Below are positions 1,240 through 5,186 of a stretch of 5,772 bases of DNA, piece by piece. Source of the DNA: a virus (Duplodnaviria; Heunggongvirae; Uroviricota; Caudoviricetes); IMG/VR virus record IMGVR_UViG_3300029181_000054; one strand, given 5' to 3'. The stretch's first letter is position 1. Every line of letters starts with the position of its first letter. A program made the translations under genes and the position numbers. Under the pieces are notes generated by a model, which worked only from the letters and a program-made list of their open reading frames with translations, was not told the DNA's origin and did not search any database.

Positions 1240-1530
1240 TTAGTGATTGAGGCCGTTACCGCGTCCGTCGAGAAAAACTTCCACGAGCAAATCACGGGTA
1301 TAAGTGCGCTCGATGCCGCGATGCAGATAAAGCCGTCCGCGTAAATTAGCTGATGCAGTCCAGGTACCATCTTTGTGTTTGACCAGCATTCCTGGCATGA
1401 CCGCACCGCGATTAACGGTCTGCGTTCCGTAATGTTGATGAACCATAAAAACTCCTGCCCGTAAGCTGGGCTGCTGAACATATAGAGACTTCTGCGCGTA
1501 TTCAGGCGGTGGATGGCCGCCGGTTGTCAT
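1240..1530 (-). CDS. Hypothetical small protein, first ORF of the putative pL operon (N/kil position); start uncertain
   Basis: Open frame 1240-1650 on the minus strand. Candidate starts: ATG 1444-1446 with a strong AGGAG Shine-Dalgarno 5 nt upstream (68 aa, [35 protein letters not shown]...); ATG 1528-1530 with a weaker GAGG-type site (96 aa); TTG 1648-1650 or GTG 1615-1617, which would add an arginine-rich N-terminus (RGVKRTRERR). No family recognised. Confidence 0.45.
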
Positions 1531-1668
1531 AACTAAGCCGCCTCGTTGAAGCGACTGAGGTATAAAGTGTTGTGTTGATTTCAGCTGGTCACACCGACGT
1601 TCACGCGTCCGTTTCACCCCTCGCACTCCCCGAAGCCTGCTGAAATTCAAACTGCGGATCTAAGCGGT

Positions 1669-1718
1669 CATCGCAACGGTGAAACAGGTGGTTACCGTAT
1701 CGTTGTGTCGTTGCGATG
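1669..1718 (-). other. Perfect 10-bp inverted repeat (CATCGCAACG / CGTTGCGATG) with 30-nt spacer in the putative pL leader; potential RNA hairpin or protein binding site
   Basis: Window 1669-1678 CATCGCAACG and 1709-1718 CGTTGCGATG are exact reverse complements. The element begins right after the predicted pL start and ends just before the in-frame stop that opens the downstream ORF. Confidence 0.4.
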
Positions 1719-1721
1719 AAT

Positions 1722-1800
1722 TTATTTAAAACTATAGTTGTTTTATCGTCAACAACAAAAGTTGTTTTATCGGTTGTTTTAAATATAACTGGTTGTATTT
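1722..1800 (-). promoter_or_regulatory. Candidate OL operator cluster and pL promoter (leftward)
   Basis: GTTGTT motifs at 1737-1742, 1761-1766, 1773-1778 (and GGTTGTA 1791-1797), plus an inverted AACAAC at 1751-1756 forming GTTGTT-N8-AACAAC; the same half-site forms the palindrome between cI and cro. Minus-strand -35 TTGACG (window 1747-1752), 17-nt spacer, -10 TTAAAT (window 1724-1729). Confidence 0.45.
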
Positions 1801-1890
1801 AGGATGGATTTATTTTGTGACTTGCATCGCATAGCGATAACTGAAGTGAGGTGTGGTGGTTTTTTGGACGGTATGAGTTATGAGGGGGAG

Positions 1891-1919
1891 GAAAAGAAAA
1901 CCCGGCGCGGTTGCCGGGT
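1891..1919 (-). terminator. Intrinsic (rho-independent) terminator downstream of the lipoprotein gene
   Basis: On the minus strand: GC-rich stem CCCGGC / GCCGGG (window 1901-1906 and 1913-1918) with a 6-nt loop, followed by TTTTCTTTTC. Starts 8 nt after the lipoprotein stop codon (1927-1929). Confidence 0.7.
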
Positions 1920-1926
1920 ATGATTA

Positions 1927-2307
1927 TCAGTCAGCCCAACCTGATTTCGAGTTTATTTGGGTTTCTGACATTGTGTATTTCTTAATCGTGTCATCGTTAA
2001 AAAGAATAGTAAGTTCTTTTTTCGTACCGTTCGTTCCATTATGGAATAATCCATAGAATGGAATAAAAGTGGTGCCATTAACTTTTACTTTTGCAAAGGC
2101 GTACTTCCAGATCTCCTTTCCACTGTCAGTATATGAAACAGCATCAGGAGAACCAAAGTAAGATTTAACCTCATTCTTGGTTGTTTTACCTTCCCGAAGT
2201 TTAGACTGGACACTAATTTCAGTTTCATTTTTGAGTTGCTGGTTGCCTGAAGAAGCACACCCAGCCAATACAGATGCCATCATGGCAGCGATTAGGATTT
2301 TTCTCAT
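1927..2307 (-). CDS. Small secreted lipoprotein (126 aa), AT-rich moron in the rexAB position; function unknown
   Basis: N-terminus MRKILIAAMMASVLAGCASS has a positively charged n-region, a hydrophobic core and a canonical lipobox LAGC (Cys17), with Ala at +2. The mature part has a pattern (SKLREGKTTKNEVKSYFGSPDAV ... LTILFNDDTIKKY) loosely reminiscent of BamE/SmpA-OmlA-type small lipoproteins; this is my recollection, not a search result. Sampled 60-nt segments are about one third GC, against more than half in bet. Confidence 0.85.
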   Translation of the reverse strand: MRKILIAAMMASVLAGCASSGNQQLKNETEISVQSKLREGKTTKNEVKSYFGSPDAVSYTDSGKEIWKYAFAKVKVNGTTFIPFYGLFHNGTNGTKKELTILFNDDTIKKYTMSETQINSKSGWAD

Positions 2308-2536: not shown

Positions 2537-3226
2537 TTAACCATGCTTCCTGTACGTCTGCGGCATGCTTCCAATGACCTTACCGAATATGAACACCCGG
2601 TTCATCTCGTCTTTCTCGATCGGGTCCCACGGCGAGTAGCTCTTGTTATCAGAGATAACCAGCAGCTTATCCTTCATCATTTGAAGACGTTTTACATGGG
2701 CAGTGTCGTCGTACAGAAACGCATAGATGCCATCACCGTCGAAAGATTTAACAGTGATATCAACGAACAGCAGGTCACCTGGTTCGATCGTCCCTGACAT
2801 GCTGTCACCTCGCACGTTAATGATGCGGATATTTTCCGCCTTCCTGCCATCGAACATGTGACGAGCATCGTCAAACGAGTACTCAACCGAGCGTAGAACT
2901 TCTACAAACTCACGGTTGATTACACCTGGCCCGGCACTGACTTCTATATCAAGAACGTCAATTTTGAAGTATTTGGAATGGCTGACAGTTGATTGTATTG
3001 GTTGCACTGTACTGTCTGACATATTTCCAACGCCAGAAGATAACCATTCTGCGCGCACACCCAAAGCGTTCGCGATCTCCACGATTTTAGTTGTTTGGTT
3101 AGCTTTCCCTGTTTCGATTTTCTGAATAGCAGCCTGGCTAACCCCGACCAAATCCCCAAGCGCCTTTTGTGTAAGGCCTCGCGCTAATCTGGCTTCTTTA
3201 AGTCTTTCTGAGAGTGTTGTTTTCAT
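2537..3226 (-). CDS. cI: CI-type prophage repressor: N-terminal XRE/Cro-CI helix-turn-helix and C-terminal S24 (LexA-like) autopeptidase domain
   Basis: 229 aa. N-terminal LTQKALGDLVGVSQAAIQKIETGK is a typical HTH. C-terminal RGDSMSGTIEPGDLLFVD (catalytic Ser) and VKRL (catalytic Lys) are S24 motifs, with a candidate Ala-Gly cleavage site in VSAGPG. Divergent from a cro-like gene across a 104-bp operator region. Not lambda cI. Confidence 0.93.
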   Translation of the reverse strand: MKTTLSERLKEARLARGLTQKALGDLVGVSQAAIQKIETGKANQTTKIVEIANALGVRAEWLSSGVGNMSDSTVQPIQSTVSHSKYFKIDVLDIEVSAGPGVINREFVEVLRSVEYSFDDARHMFDGRKAENIRIINVRGDSMSGTIEPGDLLFVDITVKSFDGDGIYAFLYDDTAHVKRLQMMKDKLLVISDNKSYSPWDPIEKDEMNRVFIFGKVIGSMPQTYRKHG

Positions 3227-3330
3227 AGATCAAATGTACAACCAAGGTTTTATTTCATCAAACGAAAATGGTTGTTGACTAAAAACAACCATAGTTTTAA
3301 TCTTGATTCGGATTAACCACGGAGGTTGTT
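3227..3330. promoter_or_regulatory. OR region: divergent pRM / pR promoters with palindromic operator(s)
   Basis: Perfect 25-bp palindrome ATGGTTGTT-gactaaa-AACAACCAT at 3268-3292 overlapping a plus-strand -35 TTGACT (3275-3280), with -10 TAATCT (3298-3303) and GGAGG Shine-Dalgarno at 3321-3325 before cro ATG 3331. A second, weaker site around 3236-3253 (ACAACC, palindrome AACCAAGGTT 3240-3249). Candidate minus-strand pRM: -35 TTGATG (window 3256-3261), -10 TACATT (window 3233-3238), which places the start at about the cI ATG (leaderless, as for lambda pRM). Confidence 0.55.
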
Positions 3331-3561
3331 ATGAACCCAGCAATCAAAACAGCGATCAATATCGTTGGTTCACAAAAGAAACTAGGCGATGCCTGCGAAG
3401 TTTCACAGCAGGCCGTCTATAAGTGGCTTCACAACAAAGCAAAGGTATCCCCTGAACATGTCGGCAGCATTGTTACGGCTACTGGTGGAGTTGTGAAGGC
3501 ATACCAGATTCGCCCGGATCTTCCGAAGTTGTTTCCACACACCGAAAAGAACGCAGCTTAA
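3331..3561 (+). CDS. cro: Cro-like HTH regulator of the YdaS family
   Basis: 76 aa, first gene rightward of the operator region, strong GGAGG Shine-Dalgarno. AIKTAINIVGSQKKLGDACEVSQQAVYKWL ... IRPDLPKLFP resembles my recollection of E. coli Rac YdaS (AIELAGGSQSALARLLGVSRQAVHQW ... RPDLW). Confidence 0.85.
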   Translation: MNPAIKTAINIVGSQKKLGDACEVSQQAVYKWLHNKAKVSPEHVGSIVTATGGVVKAYQIRPDLPKLFPHTEKNAA

Positions 3562-3573
3562 ATTTCCATTTCA

Positions 3574-3586
3574 CGCTCTTTAACAA
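3574..3586 (+). promoter_or_regulatory. boxA antitermination element (nutR-like position, immediately downstream of cro)
   Basis: CGCTCTTTAACAA at 3574-3586 matches the consensus boxA (rrn-type GCTCTTTAACAA; lambda nut boxA CGCTCTTA) and sits 13 nt after the cro stop, where nutR lies in lambda. No boxB-like hairpin is evident downstream. Confidence 0.55.
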
Positions 3587-3630: not shown

Positions 3631-4170
3631 ATGCAACCACTTACATACCAACAGACTAGCGGATTTATTCCGACTGCGGTGATAAATCGTTCTCAAACAA
3701 AACAAGCTCCAGGCCACGAAAAAATCCGTGATGCCGTCCGCGCCTGGTCGGCTGTAGATAATCAGGATGTCGTTGCCGCACTCATTGTGAATGAGTATCG
3801 GGAGCAGGGCGACGGCACCATCGATTTCCCTGATGATGTCAGCCGTGCACGCCAGAAGCTGTTCCGCTTCCTCGATAACAAATTCGATTCTGAAAAATAC
3901 CGAAATAACGTGCGTGAACTGACCCCGGCAATTCTGGCGGTACTACCGCTGGAATATCGCGGTTACCTGGTTGAGCAGGATAGCTTCATGACTCGGTTGG
4001 CTGAAATGGAAAAGGAACTCAGTGAGGCAAAACAGGCTGTCATTCTCAACGCACCACGCCACCAGAAACTGAAGGAAATGAGTGAAGGTATTGTGTCGAT
4101 GTTTCGTGTGGACCCGGATCTGGCTGGTCCATTAATGGCGATGGTGACCACCATGCTGGGGGCAATATGA
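3631..4170 (+). CDS. YdaT-family protein (CII-position regulator of YdaS/YdaT-type immunity regions)
   Basis: 179 aa with an AAGGAG Shine-Dalgarno. VAALIVNEYREQGDG and LTPAILAVLPLEYRGYL parallel VANAITEEYLRQGGG and LIPAILAILPRELR of E. coli Rac YdaT as I recall it. Sits between the cro-like gene and O, where cII lies in lambda. Its stop overlaps an upstream ATG in the O frame (ATGA at 4167-4170). Confidence 0.8.
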   Translation: MQPLTYQQTSGFIPTAVINRSQTKQAPGHEKIRDAVRAWSAVDNQDVVAALIVNEYREQGDGTIDFPDDVSRARQKLFRFLDNKFDSEKYRNNVRELTPAILAVLPLEYRGYLVEQDSFMTRLAEMEKELSEAKQAVILNAPRHQKLKEMSEGIVSMFRVDPDLAGPLMAMVTTMLGAI

Positions 4171-4256: not shown

Positions 4257-5186
4257 ATGGCAAACACTGCTGAGATATTCAATTTTCCAGTGCCGGATGC
4301 GGCACAAAAGGAGCCGCGCGTGGCAGATCTCGATGATGGTTATACGCGCATTGCAAATGAGTTGCTGGAAGCTGTGATGCTGGCCGGATTAACACAGCAC
4401 CAGCTTCTGGTCTTCCTGGCTGTCATGCGCAAAACATATGGCTTTAATAAAAAACTGGATTGGGTGAGCAACGAGCAACTTTCCGAGTTGACCGGGATAT
4501 TGCCGCACAAGTGTTCTGCTGCAAAAAGTGTTCTGGTAAAGCGTGGGATTTTTATTCAGAGCGGGCGGAATATCGGCATTAATAATGTGGTCAGTGAATG
4601 GTCAACATTACCCGAATCAGGTAAGAAAAATAAAGTTTACCTGAAAGAGGTAAATTTACCTGAATCAGGTAAGAAAAGTTTACCCAAATCAGGTAAAGGC
4701 ACTTACCCGAATCAGGTAAACACAAAAGACAAACTAACAAAAGACAATATAAAACCTTTTTCGTCCGAGAATTCTGGCGAATCCTCTGACCAACCAGAAA
4801 ACGATCTTCCTGTGGAGAAACCAGATGCTGCAATTCAGAGCGGCAGCAGGTGGGGGACAGCAGAAGACCTGACCGCCGCAGAGTGGATGTTTGACATGGT
4901 GAAGACCATCGCGCCATCAGCCAGAAAACCGAATTTTGCAGGGTGGGCTAACGATATCCGCCTGATGCGTGAACGTGACGGACGTAACCACCGCGACATG
5001 TGCGTGCTGTTCCGCTGGGCATGCCAGGACAACTTCTGGTCCGGTAACGTGCTGAGTCCGGCCAAACTCCGCGACAAGTGGACCCAGCTCGAAATCAACC
5101 GAAACAAGCAACAGGCTGGCGTGACAGCCGGCAAACCAAAACTCGACCTGACGAACACTGACTGGATTTACGGGGTGGATTTATGA
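4257..5186 (+). CDS. O: Replication initiator O (origin-binding protein), chimeric: non-lambda N-terminal region, lambda-like C-terminal region
   Basis: Start chosen at ATG 4257-4259 (GGGAGG Shine-Dalgarno 4245-4250) because MANTAEIFNF...VADLDDGYTRIANELLEA aligns with the lambda O N-terminus MTNTAKILNF...VADLDDGYARL. The open frame extends upstream to ATG 4167, an alternative start 30 codons longer. The C-terminal part (SGSRWGTAEDLTAAEWMFDMVKTIAPSARKPNFAGWANDIRLMRERDGRNHRDMCVLFRWACQDNFWSGNVLSPAKLRDKWTQLEINRNKQQAGVTAGKPKLDLTNTDWIYGVDL) is near-identical to lambda O from memory. The stop overlaps the P start (ATGA). Confidence 0.92.
   Translation: MANTAEIFNFPVPDAAQKEPRVADLDDGYTRIANELLEAVMLAGLTQHQLLVFLAVMRKTYGFNKKLDWVSNEQLSELTGILPHKCSAAKSVLVKRGIFIQSGRNIGINNVVSEWSTLPESGKKNKVYLKEVNLPESGKKSLPKSGKGTYPNQVNTKDKLTKDNIKPFSSENSGESSDQPENDLPVEKPDAAIQSGSRWGTAEDLTAAEWMFDMVKTIAPSARKPNFAGWANDIRLMRERDGRNHRDMCVLFRWACQDNFWSGNVLSPAKLRDKWTQLEINRNKQQAGVTAGKPKLDLTNTDWIYGVDL
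4608..4720 (+). repeat. ori iterons inside the O gene: five copies (one degenerate) of a 16-bp dyad-symmetric core TACC(C/T)(G/A)AATCAGGTAA
   Basis: Cores at 4609-4624 (TACCCGAATCAGGTAA), 4638-4653 (TACCTGAAAGAGGTAA, two mismatches), 4657-4672 (TACCTGAATCAGGTAA, a perfect palindrome), 4681-4696 (TACCCAAATCAGGTAA) and 4704-4719 (TACCCGAATCAGGTAA), at 19-29 bp spacing. They translate as the repetitive LPESGKK linker of O. Confidence 0.85.
4721..4765. other. AT-rich (A-rich) region flanking the iterons; putative DNA-unwinding part of the phage origin
   Basis: CACAAAAGACAAACTAACAAAAGACAATATAAAACCTTTTT lies directly right of the last iteron. Lambda ori has the same layout of iterons followed by an AT-rich segment within O. 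Confidence 0.6.

What the first reader, a model, noticed from the sequence alone, without database searches (positions are those of the whole stretch)
1446..1718. Putative pL leader with a large perfect hairpin and an arginine-rich (N-like) frame ahead of a strongly initiated small ORF
Seen: downstream of the candidate pL, the transcript would begin with a perfect 10-bp inverted repeat enclosing 30 nt (1669-1718). An in-frame stop (1660-1662) is followed by an open frame whose first residues, if started at TTG 1648-1650 or GTG 1615-1617, are RLRGVRGVKRTRERR. This resembles the arginine-rich motif at the N-terminus of lambdoid N proteins (lambda TRRRERR, P22 TRRHERR, recalled from memory). The same frame contains ATG 1528-1530 and ATG 1444-1446, the latter with a strong AGGAG site. 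The CATCGCA heptamer of the hairpin arms recurs in a small palindrome ATCGCATAGCGAT at 1826-1838. Inference: this is either an N-like antiterminator with a non-canonical start and a structured nutL-like leader, or a structured RNA element followed by an unrelated 68-aa early protein.
Basis: partly seen in the sequence, partly recalled or inferred. Interest (0 to 1): 0.6.

Follow-up and report, generated by a model that had tools for sequence, protein, structure and literature searches.

The report
Untranslated pL leader of phage kil
The flagged stretch is not an N-like antiterminator gene but the roughly 270-base untranslated leader in front of the cell-division inhibitor gene kil of a very common lambda-like E. 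coli prophage that has neither N nor put, and it contains a conserved RNA hairpin module, absent from Rfam, whose function is unknown.

Summary
The inverted repeat is in fact 11+11 nt (1668-1678/1709-1719).

The N-like reading fails.
- The 68-aa ORF is a KilR-family FtsZ inhibitor that starts at ATG 1446.
- The upstream arginine-rich frame shows no coding signature. About half of 98 relatives interrupt it with stops or frameshifts.
- It has no relatives outside this E. coli prophage family and no match to N families.

A put covariance model finds putL and putR in HK022 and phiEt88 (putL only in the fetched part of HK639). It finds nothing here or in the complete 99.7%-identical phage PhiR26_1, which also lacks N.

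The interval is the untranslated pL leader. It has three parts:
- A hairpin at the predicted 5' end. It is conserved by sequence with no covariation, and the perfect stem is a minority allele.
- A moderately conserved middle part with no demonstrable fold.
- A 60-nt module (1505-1564) shared with phi80 (tL1 region), HK225, HK639 and many put phages. Its long hairpin covaries strongly and encloses ATG 1528-1530.

The most likely role is cis control of toxic kil and the downstream gam-bet-exo genes. The mechanism is inferred, not shown.

The parts
1724..1752 (-). pL promoter: -35 TTGACG (1747-1752), 17-nt spacer, -10 TTAAAT (1724-1729). Predicted start at about A1717.
   Evidence: It is near-identical to pR in front of cro at 3270-3300. 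The same block precedes putL in phiEt88 and other phages. The simple consensus scan missed it because of the non-canonical -10.
1730..1772 (.). oL operator repeats: two 19-nt direct repeats at 1730-1748 and 1754-1772, core AAAACAAC-N4-GTTTT. They overlap pL.
   Evidence: related repeats and a palindrome occur in oR at 3238-3299
1668..1719 (-). 5'-terminal hairpin of the pL transcript (11-nt perfect arms in DNA, 30-nt CA-rich loop). In the RNA the stem starts at or within 1-2 nt of the predicted +1.
   Evidence: The stem is kept as 8-11 bp in 4 immunity types and weakened in a fifth. No compensatory changes occur in the outer stem.
1565..1667 (-). Middle leader domain. It contains the arginine-rich pseudo-frame, is non-coding and is found only in the E. 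coli prophage family. It occupies the position that putL occupies in some relatives.
   Evidence: Flat codon-position variation, stops and indels. pi is 0.038 against 0.071 at kil third positions. There is no conserved fold and no relatives outside the family. For the positional comparison.
1505..1564 (-). Conserved RNA module. Hairpin A has an upper stem at 1536-1556 and a lower stem pairing 1558-1564 with 1528-1534; ATG 1528-1530 lies in the lower stem, and an invariant GAG sits at the apex. Hairpin B is GGCGG-CCAUCCA-CCGCC at 1505-1521.
   Evidence: Covariance model R2 scores 87.7 bits here and gives 74 hits in other lambdoid loci. 98.1% of cells are paired, 10 of 20 pairs show double changes, and 153 cells show double changes against 46 +/- 4.8 in shuffles. 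Shared with HK225, HK639 (annotated 'terminator') and phi80.
1447..1504 (-). kil translation initiation region, with a small GCCC/GGGC hairpin and Shine-Dalgarno AGGAG at 1452-1456.
   Evidence: Low diversity, pi 0.022.
1240..1446 (-). kil: 68-aa KilR-family FtsZ/cell-division inhibitor, first gene of the pL operon, followed by gam (868-1164) and bet (77-862).
   Evidence: phrog_294 E = 2.4e-38. NF008465 aligns residues 69-136 of the long ORF to profile positions 1-70. 36% identity to Rac KilR from residue 1 and 41% to phi80 Kil. Third-codon-position excess 7/14/40. RefSeq annotates 207 bp.

Best explanation
The interval 1447-1719 is the untranslated 5' leader of the early-left (pL) mRNA of a lambda-like, icd-integrated E. 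coli prophage. This prophage has no N gene and no put RNA. Its first pL gene is kil, a toxic KilR-family inhibitor of cell division, followed by gam-bet-exo. The arginine-rich frame is a chance open frame in non-coding sequence.

The leader acts in cis as RNA and has three parts.

(1) A hairpin whose first paired base is at or next to the predicted +1. Two different promoter types place the start at the same A of AUCGCAAC. The most likely role (inferred) is protection of the mRNA 5' end from 5'-end-dependent decay by RppH and RNase E, as with the ompA-type 5' stem-loop.

(2) A middle segment that is moderately conserved and has no demonstrable fold.

(3) A 60-nt module shared with many lambdoid phages. 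In it a long covarying hairpin buries an invariant AUG and an invariant GAG, followed by a GC hairpin. In other phages this module sits just after the tL1-type terminator or just after putL, at the entrance to the kil/recombination segment.

I infer that the module gates expression of what lies downstream. It would work as a weak tL1-type attenuator and/or by keeping the leader untranslated and so open to Rho. This would hold Kil low, as Rho/NusG do for kilR in the Rac prophage.

Shown here: the region is non-coding, the downstream gene is Kil, N and put are absent, and the module's structure is conserved and covaries. Inferred: the transcription start, the stabiliser role, and the attenuator or translational-gate role.
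For: Genome context.
- The window is 99.7% identical to phage PhiR26_1 over the queried 766 bases. The gene order is int...exo-bet-gam-kil | pL | lipoprotein-cI | cro-cII-like-O-P, with no N.
- No lambda-N or phi80-N homolog is found by tblastn in that genome.

Kil.
- PHROG 294, E = 2.4e-38.
- NCBIfam FtsZ-inhibitor profile position 1 aligns to M69 of the long ORF.
- BLASTP alignment to Rac KilR starts at residue 1.

The leader is non-coding.
- Variable sites by codon position are 7/14/40 in kil but 12/9/14 in 1447-1650.
- Only 49 of 98 distinct relatives keep the frame open to 1650, and 33 carry a TAG at 1555-1557.
- There are +5, +1, -1 and -2 indels.

The leader is constrained: pi is 0.022-0.038 against 0.071 at kil third positions.

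It is widespread: 2231 of 5426 complete E. coli genomes.

The module.
- R2 hits in 74 loci.
- Strong covariation: 0 of 500 shuffles reach the observed value, and the slid controls are 4-15 times lower.
- It is annotated 'terminator' in HK639 and lies at the start of the phi80 t-L1 region.
- It directly follows putL in L150 and L152.

Precedent: kilR in Rac is held off by NusG/Rho-dependent termination (PMC5793797) and has a 5'UTR-derived sRNA, KilS (PMC8175672).

Hairpin stability: z = -3.45.
Against: - No experimental 5' end, so the 5'-terminal position of the hairpin rests on a promoter prediction.
- The outer stem shows only conservation and G.U-compatible single changes. There are no compensatory pairs.
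- In the commonest alleles the hairpin is weak (-9 to -13 kcal/mol, z = -1.3 to -2.6). The majority consensus of the 5' domain folds differently.
- One immunity type replaces most of the 5' arm.
- Hairpin A has a poor U-tract (UUAGUUAU) and was not called by the terminator scan. It often sits right after a strong terminator, which argues against a plain terminator.
- C/G composition gives only a modest rut-like stretch, C/G 1.3-1.6 over 1612-1463.
- The covariation count was made on an alignment fitted to the model.
Confidence: 0.6

Rival explanations
1. The 5' domain (about 1586-1718), alone or with the module, is a new kind of cis-acting antiterminator RNA. It would modify RNA polymerase as HK022 put does and replace N/put in this phage family.
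For: - The phage family has neither N nor put, yet members are plaque-forming phages.
- The domain lies directly after pL. In relatives L150 and L152 putL lies in that position, immediately before the same module and with a similar junction sequence.
- phiEt88 shares the pL/operator block and has putL there.
- The domain is less variable than kil third positions.
- At least one good intrinsic terminator lies further down the pL operon, at L022 2000-1986.
Against: - No sequence or structure similarity to put: the R1 model finds both putL and the divergent putR in HK022 and phiEt88, but nothing here.
- There is no second copy downstream of pR. That position carries a boxA instead.
- No conserved fold and no covariation.
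- Polymorphisms break as many predicted pairs as they keep.
- Few strong terminators are predicted in the early operons, so antitermination may not be needed.
Confidence: 0.12
2. The arginine-rich frame encodes an N-like antiterminator protein (136, 125 or 96 aa, or a separate peptide of about 31 aa), and the hairpin is its nut site.
For:
- Some GenBank records annotate 125-aa or 96-aa 'Kil' proteins or a 31-aa ORF here.
Against: - Flat codon-position variation.
- The frame is closed by a stop in 33 of 98 relatives and broken by indels in others.
- There are no Pfam, PHROG or NCBIfam N hits.
- tblastn finds the arginine-rich part only in the same E. coli family at 94% identity or more.
- Kil homologs in other genera and in Rac, phi80, HK225 and HK639 are 68-73 aa and align from M69.
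- There is no boxA within 3 mismatches in the leader.
- RefSeq consistently bp.
Confidence: 0.03
3. ATG 1528-1530 is used, giving either a short leader peptide (MTTGGHPPP..., a polyproline stalling sensor) or, in this window, a 96-aa N-terminally extended Kil.
For: - The AUG and an upstream GAG are invariant in 67 distinct module sequences.
- The ORF is 20-21 codons in HK639, HK225 and phi80.
- It is in frame with kil in most window-type relatives.
- The mgtL/mgtP-type proline-rich leader peptides are a precedent (my own knowledge).
Against: - The peptide is not conserved after PPP.
- Independent -1 and -2 frameshifts occur inside codons 2-4: ATGACACCGG, ATGAGACGG, ATGAAGCCGG.
- Substitutions are mostly non-synonymous.
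- Conservation extends to third positions, as expected for RNA structure.
- The AUG is buried in the lower stem.
Confidence: 0.1
4. The 5' hairpin and middle domain have no function. They would be a leftover of recombination or deletion between immunity and recombination modules, and the inverted repeat would be a chance or DNA-level feature such as a protein-binding site.
For: - Window-wide chance of such a repeat is only about 5%.
- The perfect stem is a minority allele.
- There is no covariation.
- Mosaic joints fall at or inside the hairpin.
- The distribution is restricted to E. coli.
Against: - Diversity is about half that of neighbouring third codon positions.
- The stem is kept in four to five different immunity contexts, including G.U-compatible changes that would be mismatches in DNA.
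- Two promoter types place the predicted +1 at the same stem base.
Confidence: 0.15

Closest known systems
Lambda N / nutL (and phi80 N)
   Same: Same genomic position: immediately downstream of pL, upstream of kil-gam-bet-exo. A hairpin is present in the early leader. An arginine-rich stretch is present in one frame.
   Different: There is no conserved ORF, no N homology and no boxA/boxB in the leader. The first gene is kil itself. A perfect boxA exists only on the pR side (3574-3585), without a boxB or an N gene.
HK022/HK639/phiEt88 put RNAs (cis-acting antiterminator RNAs)
   Same: The phage is N-less. The element lies right after pL. phiEt88 shares the same pL/operator block. In L150 and L152 putL abuts the same downstream module.
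   Different: The put covariance model scores nothing here. There is no second (putR-like) copy, no two-stem put architecture and none of the put conserved sequence blocks.
Rac prophage kilR leader (Rho/NusG-silenced; 5'UTR sRNA KilS)
   Same: A long untranslated region lies upstream of a KilR-family toxic gene. Control by transcription termination is documented for Rac.
   Different: There is no sequence or model similarity to the Rac leader or to KilS. Rac has intervening genes and a separate promoter.
phi80 tL1 region / HK639 'terminator' upstream of kil
   Same: The 60-nt module at 1505-1564 is homologous. It has the same flanks (CAUACCU...UUAUGACAACCGGCGGCCAUCCACCGCC), and the stem covaries.
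   Different: In those phages the module follows N or other genes and a canonical terminator. Here it follows an E. coli-specific 150-nt leader directly. Its function has not been defined in any of them as far as I could find.
5'-terminal stabiliser stem-loops (ompA type)
   Same: The stem begins within 0-2 nt of the predicted 5' end of a long leader.
   Different: The 5' end is only predicted. The stem encloses an unusually large 30-nt loop and is weak in the commonest alleles.

Membership tests
Lambdoid N antiterminator proteins | A conserved protein-coding ORF directly downstream of pL | tested here: not met
   Codon-position variation is 12/9/14 against 7/14/40 in kil. Only 49 of 98 relatives keep the frame open. 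Frame-breaking indels are present.
Lambdoid N antiterminator proteins | Sequence homology to known N families | tested here: not met
   No Pfam, PHROGs or NCBIfam N hit. tblastn of the 68-aa frame finds only the same prophage family. Lambda N and phi80 N find nothing in PhiR26_1.
Lambdoid N antiterminator proteins | A nut site (boxA plus boxB hairpin) in the leader | tested here: not met
   No boxA within 3 mismatches on the minus strand of the leader. The only exact boxA is at 3574-3585, after cro.
put antiterminator RNA (HK022 type) | Match to the put sequence/structure consensus | tested here: not met
   Model R1 scores 92-99 bits on the putL of HK022, phiEt88 and HK639, and about 31 bits on the putR of HK022 and phiEt88. 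Nothing scores below E = 0.4 in the window or the whole PhiR26_1 genome.
put antiterminator RNA (HK022 type) | Paired copies downstream of pL and pR | tested here: not met
   No second copy of the leader anywhere in PhiR26_1.
put antiterminator RNA (HK022 type) | Terminator read-through in cis, dependent on the RNA polymerase beta' zinc-binding domain | not testable with these tools
   Needs transcription assays.
Kil / KilR FtsZ inhibitors (the 68-aa ORF) | Homology to the family over the full length, starting at the family's first residue | tested here: met
   phrog_294 E = 2.4e-38. 36% identity to Rac KilR from residue 1, E = 9e-13, and 41% to phi80 Kil. NF008465 gives 60.8 bits, below its 92-bit subfamily cut-off, so it belongs to the family but not to the Rac subfamily.
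Kil / KilR FtsZ inhibitors (the 68-aa ORF) | Position just upstream of gam and the recombination genes in the pL operon | tested here: met
Intrinsic terminator (hairpin A, as annotated in HK639) | A GC-rich hairpin directly followed by a U-rich tract | tested here: inconclusive
   The hairpin is present and covaries. The tail is UUAGUUAU, with 4-5 U in 8 nt, interrupted and paired to the 5' flank. The scan did not call it.
5'-terminal mRNA stabiliser hairpin | A stem starting within about 0-2 nt of the transcript 5' end | tested here: inconclusive
   Met only on the predicted start, A1717. No 5'-end data.
Any Rfam family | Covariance-model match | tested here: not met
   No relevant hit at E <= 1 in the whole window.

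The most novel reading that the evidence does not exclude
An abundant family of lambda-like prophages, found in about 40% of complete E. coli genomes, has dispensed with both N and put. The pL leader may itself be a new type of cis-acting RNA that controls transcription elongation or termination of the early-left operon. The candidate is the E. coli-specific 5' domain, which sits where putL sits in relatives, together with the covarying 60-nt module.
Probability: 0.12. Interest if true: 0.8.

Novelty: new member of a known kind. Interest (0 to 1): 0.45.

Why it matters
The N-like reading would have mis-annotated a non-coding leader. GenBank records already disagree, giving 68-, 96- and 125-aa 'Kil' proteins and a 31-aa ORF for the same DNA.

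The positive result has three points.
- A very common E. coli prophage family runs its early-left operon without N or put.
- Its first gene is the toxic cell-division inhibitor Kil.
- In front of kil lies a 60-nt RNA module with unusually clear covariation. The module is shared by N-type, put-type and N-less lambdoid phages, is not in Rfam, and has no assigned function.

Working out what this module does (attenuator, processing site or translational gate) would bear on two questions. One is how Kil toxicity is held in check in lysogens. The other is how N-less lambdoid phages time early gene expression, an open point noted in recent phage genomics papers (PMC12315714).

Tried and rejected
- Rfam scan of the whole window at E <= 1: only one irrelevant weak hit.
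- put membership: a covariance model built from 16 diverse putL sequences recovers the putL of HK022, phiEt88 and HK639 and the putR of HK022 and phiEt88, but finds nothing here.
- N homology: Pfam, PHROGs, NCBIfam and tblastn with the frame and with lambda and phi80 N were all negative.
- boxA in the leader: none.
- Second copy of the leader or hairpin elsewhere in the complete phage: none.
- Covariation and a conserved fold for the 5' hairpin and the middle domain: none. RNAalifold keeps only the outer stem by conservation, and the majority consensus folds differently.
- Whole-leader folding energy is not unusual, z = -0.83.
- Homology of the leader to the Rac kilR leader and KilS: none.
- The module in lambda itself: absent, with only a 13.5-bit hit at E = 0.15.
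- Rho-utilisation composition: only modest C>G.
- Literature search for the exact sequences: no paper.
- King et al. 2011 (PMC3187212), which describes HK639 put, is not held.
- RNAalifold on a plain MAFFT alignment of the module missed hairpin A because the stems are out of register. A model-based alignment was needed.
- The svsR sRNA of the related prophage NC-SV lies at the 3' end of cI, not here.

Full report
WHAT THE WINDOW IS. The window is the immunity and early region of a lambda-like phage.
- On the minus strand: bet (77-862), gam (868-1164), a 68-aa ORF (1240-1446), a lipoprotein gene (1927-2307) and a cI-type repressor (2537-3226).
- On the plus strand: cro (3331-3561), a YdaT-domain gene at the cII position, then O and P.
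- The queried stretch (1165-1930) is 99.7% identical to Escherichia phage PhiR26_1. The stretch is shared by phages such as 4A7, 4C10 and Perceval.
- The 291-nt leader is present in 2231 of 5426 complete E. coli genomes, as a prophage integrated next to icd.
- No N gene is annotated in any of these. The complete PhiR26_1 genome has none at or near pL, and lambda N and phi80 N find nothing in it by tblastn.

CHECK OF THE OBSERVATION.
- The inverted repeat is 11+11 nt (1668-1678/1709-1719), perfect, with 30 nt between the arms.
- The window contains one such repeat. In 300 dinucleotide shuffles the mean was 0.067, and 5.3% of shuffles had at least one.
- As RNA it folds at -19.2 kcal/mol, z = -3.45.

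The promoter assignment is sound. TTGACG-17 nt-TTAAAT (1752-1724, minus strand) is a near copy of pR in front of cro. It is overlapped by two 19-nt operator repeats. The same block precedes putL in Erwinia phage phiEt88. With the usual 7-nt distance, the start is A1717. A second promoter type found in relatives (TATTAT-CACCAT-A/G-TCGCAAC) puts +1 on the same base. So the hairpin would begin at the first nucleotide of the RNA. This is an inference, since no 5'-end data exist.

THE SMALL ORF IS KIL.
- The long ORF matches PHROG 294 ('Kil protein for bacterial septation inhibition') at E = 2.4e-38.
- The NCBIfam FtsZ-inhibitor profile aligns its position 1 to M69, which is ATG 1446.
- BLASTP gives 36% identity to Rac KilR, starting at residue 1 of both, and 41% to phi80 Kil.
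- Kil genes in Citrobacter, Kluyvera, Enterobacter and Silvania start at the same ATGGTTC with quite different upstream DNA.
- RefSeq annotates 207 bp.

THE ARGININE-RICH FRAME IS NOT A GENE. I collected 98 distinct versions of the region from phage records and IMG/VR.
- In kil, sites that vary in at least two sequences fall 7/14/40 on codon positions 1/2/3. In 1447-1650 they fall 12/9/14.
- Only 49 of 98 keep the frame open back to 1650. Another 33 carry C1557T, which makes a TAG. Others have +5, +1, -1 and -2 indels.
- One 90%-identical E. coli relative has TAA 16 codons before the kil ATG.
- The 68-aa translation has no family hit. By tblastn the arginine-rich part occurs only in this prophage family.
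- There is no boxA in the leader.

The N-like reading is therefore rejected. GenBank annotations of 125-aa and 96-aa 'Kil' proteins and a 31-aa ORF are over-calls of the same chance frame.

NOT PUT EITHER. phiEt88 shares pL and oL with the window up to about 1705 and then carries a canonical putL, so I tested put membership formally.
- The HK022 putL sequence came from the supplement of PMC9378689.
- I gathered diverse putL sequences and built a covariance model, R1.
- R1 scores 92-99 bits on the putL of HK022, phiEt88 and HK639. It still finds the divergent putR of HK022 and phiEt88 at about 31 bits.
- Nothing scores better than E = 0.4 in the window or the whole PhiR26_1 genome.
- There is also no second copy of the leader elsewhere in that genome.

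ANATOMY OF THE LEADER.

(a) The 5' hairpin.
- Among 60 distinct relatives, G1709 (needed for the perfect stem) is found in 5. The rest have 8-9 bp plus an A.C mismatch.
- Fold energies are -13.1 and -9.2 kcal/mol for the two commonest alleles (z = -2.6 and -1.3). Two rarer immunity types with an 8-nt loop insertion reach -24.7 and -22.6 kcal/mol.
- Changes in the outer stem are single and either G.U-compatible or rare breaks. No compensatory pair was seen.
- The O157-type immunity region replaces most of the 5' arm. Its different 5' end can still pair weakly with the same 3' arm.

(b) The middle domain, 1565-1667.
- It is found only in E. coli.
- Its nucleotide diversity (0.038) is about half that of kil third positions (0.071).
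- Polymorphisms break as many predicted pairs as they keep, and the majority consensus folds differently. No conserved structure can be claimed.

(c) The module, 1505-1564. A distant BLAST showed this stretch in HK225, HK639 (annotated 'terminator') and phi80, where it lies at the start of the region deposited as 't-L1 regulatory signal'.
- IMG/VR yielded 65 distinct versions of the module after trimming.
- The flanks are nearly invariant: CAUACCU, an apical UUC...GAG, then UUAUGACAACCGGCGGCCAUCCACCGCC. The stem between them occurs in at least eight unrelated sequences.
- A structure-aware model, R2, found 74 copies. On that alignment:
  - 98.1% of cells form standard pairs;
  - 10 of 20 pairs have changes on both sides;
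  - 153 cells carry double changes against 46 +/- 4.8 in shuffles (0 of 500 reach the observed value);
  - sliding the partners by 1-3 columns gives 10-35.
  The alignment is fitted to the model, which inflates pairing. The many independent stems are nevertheless visible in the raw sequences.
- The lower stem buries ATG 1528-1530.
- The short ORF starting there is not conserved beyond MTTGGHPPP, and it suffers independent frameshifts. The conservation is therefore at the RNA level.
- The module is absent from lambda, Rac, HK022 and the other-genus kil leaders. It is not in Rfam.
- It usually lies 60-800 nt upstream of kil. It often comes right after a strong terminator, and in L150 and L152 right after putL.

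(d) The kil initiation region, 1447-1504, with AGGAG. It has low diversity.

HOW IT MOST LIKELY WORKS. Shown: this is a constrained, untranslated leader in front of a toxic gene. Inferred:
- The blunt 5' hairpin protects the transcript from 5'-end-dependent decay.
- The module limits or gates expression of kil-gam-bet-exo. It could do so as a weak tL1-type attenuator, or by keeping the leader ribosome-free and open to Rho.

The Rac precedent is direct: kilR is kept silent by NusG/Rho-dependent termination and released when NusG drops (PMC5793797), and its 5'UTR yields the sRNA KilS (PMC8175672).

Points against a plain terminator are the poor U-tract, the invariant flanks, and the frequent position immediately after a real terminator. 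The composition gives only a modest rut-like stretch.

THE MOST NOVEL READING NOT EXCLUDED. The E. coli-specific 5' domain sits where putL sits in relatives, immediately before the same module and with a similar junction (AAUCAA...UUUCAUAC). The phage family has neither N nor put. The domain could therefore be a new cis-acting elongation-control RNA. Against this: it has no conserved fold, there is no copy on the pR side, and few strong terminators are predicted in the early operons. I put it at about 0.12.

VERDICT. The N-like interpretation is refuted, and the 'structured leader plus unrelated small protein' alternative is essentially right. The notable structure is a different hairpin from the one flagged. 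Interest is moderate: the gene content is ordinary (Kil), but the window holds an un-catalogued, strongly covarying leader module and a very common N-less, put-less lambdoid lineage.

Noticed in passing
window 3574-3585 (+): A perfect boxA consensus, CGCTCTTTAACA, lies 13 nt after the cro stop codon. This is exactly the nutR position. No boxB-like hairpin follows it, and there is no N gene in the complete relative. A 12-mer like this is expected about 0.001 times by chance. It may be a relic of an N-dependent ancestor or a host-Nus-only (rrn-like) anti-Rho signal.
   Followed up: partly
window 4603-4724 (+): Four to five iterons, TTACCYRAATCAGGTAA, spaced 19-29 nt start to start, lie inside the O gene. 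This is the lambda-type replication origin.
   Followed up: partly
window 1826-1838: The palindrome ATCGCATAGCGAT, about 75 nt upstream of the pL -35, is conserved in about 45 of 50 relatives that share this immunity type. It belongs to the immunity module, and its function is unknown. The 10-mer GCATAGCGAT also occurs at 1021 inside gam, probably by chance.
   Followed up: partly
window 1900-2307 (-): A moron sits at the rexAB position between cI and pL. It is a 126-aa lipoprotein with a weak BamE/SmpA-like match, followed by a good intrinsic terminator (1919-1900) that ends the cI transcript before oL. Relatives carry quite different cargo here, including an ASCH-domain gene and a SIR2-family gene.
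   Followed up: partly
window 3631-4170 (+): The gene at the cII position is a 179-aa YdaT_toxin-domain protein (Pfam E = 4e-30), not a lambda-type CII.
   Followed up: no
L265 5406-5503 (E. coli K-12 Rac, NC_000913 1418405-1418502): K-12 annotates a small RNA, KilS, in the 5'UTR of kilR. It is a functional parallel to a regulatory leader in front of a Kil-family gene, but it is not homologous to this leader.
   Followed up: yes
L150 6156-6300 and L152 8418-8562 (IMG/VR lambdoid contigs): putL is followed within 10 nt by the covarying 60-nt module. The module therefore occurs directly behind three different pL-proximal elements: an N gene plus terminator, put, and the E. coli-specific leader.
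   Followed up: partly
window about 2537-2620 (+), 3' end of cI: A related icd prophage, NC-SV, is reported to encode an sRNA, svsR, on the strand opposite cI at its 3' end (PMC12803456). I did not check whether this window carries it.
   Followed up: no
L022 9690-11192 (PhiR26_1): A reverse-oriented defence gene (annotated PD-lambda-1) interrupts the pR operon between ren and the nin/Q region. Candidate promoters and a strong terminator (11828-11842) follow it. Q expression in this N-less phage may not rely on read-through from pR.
   Followed up: no
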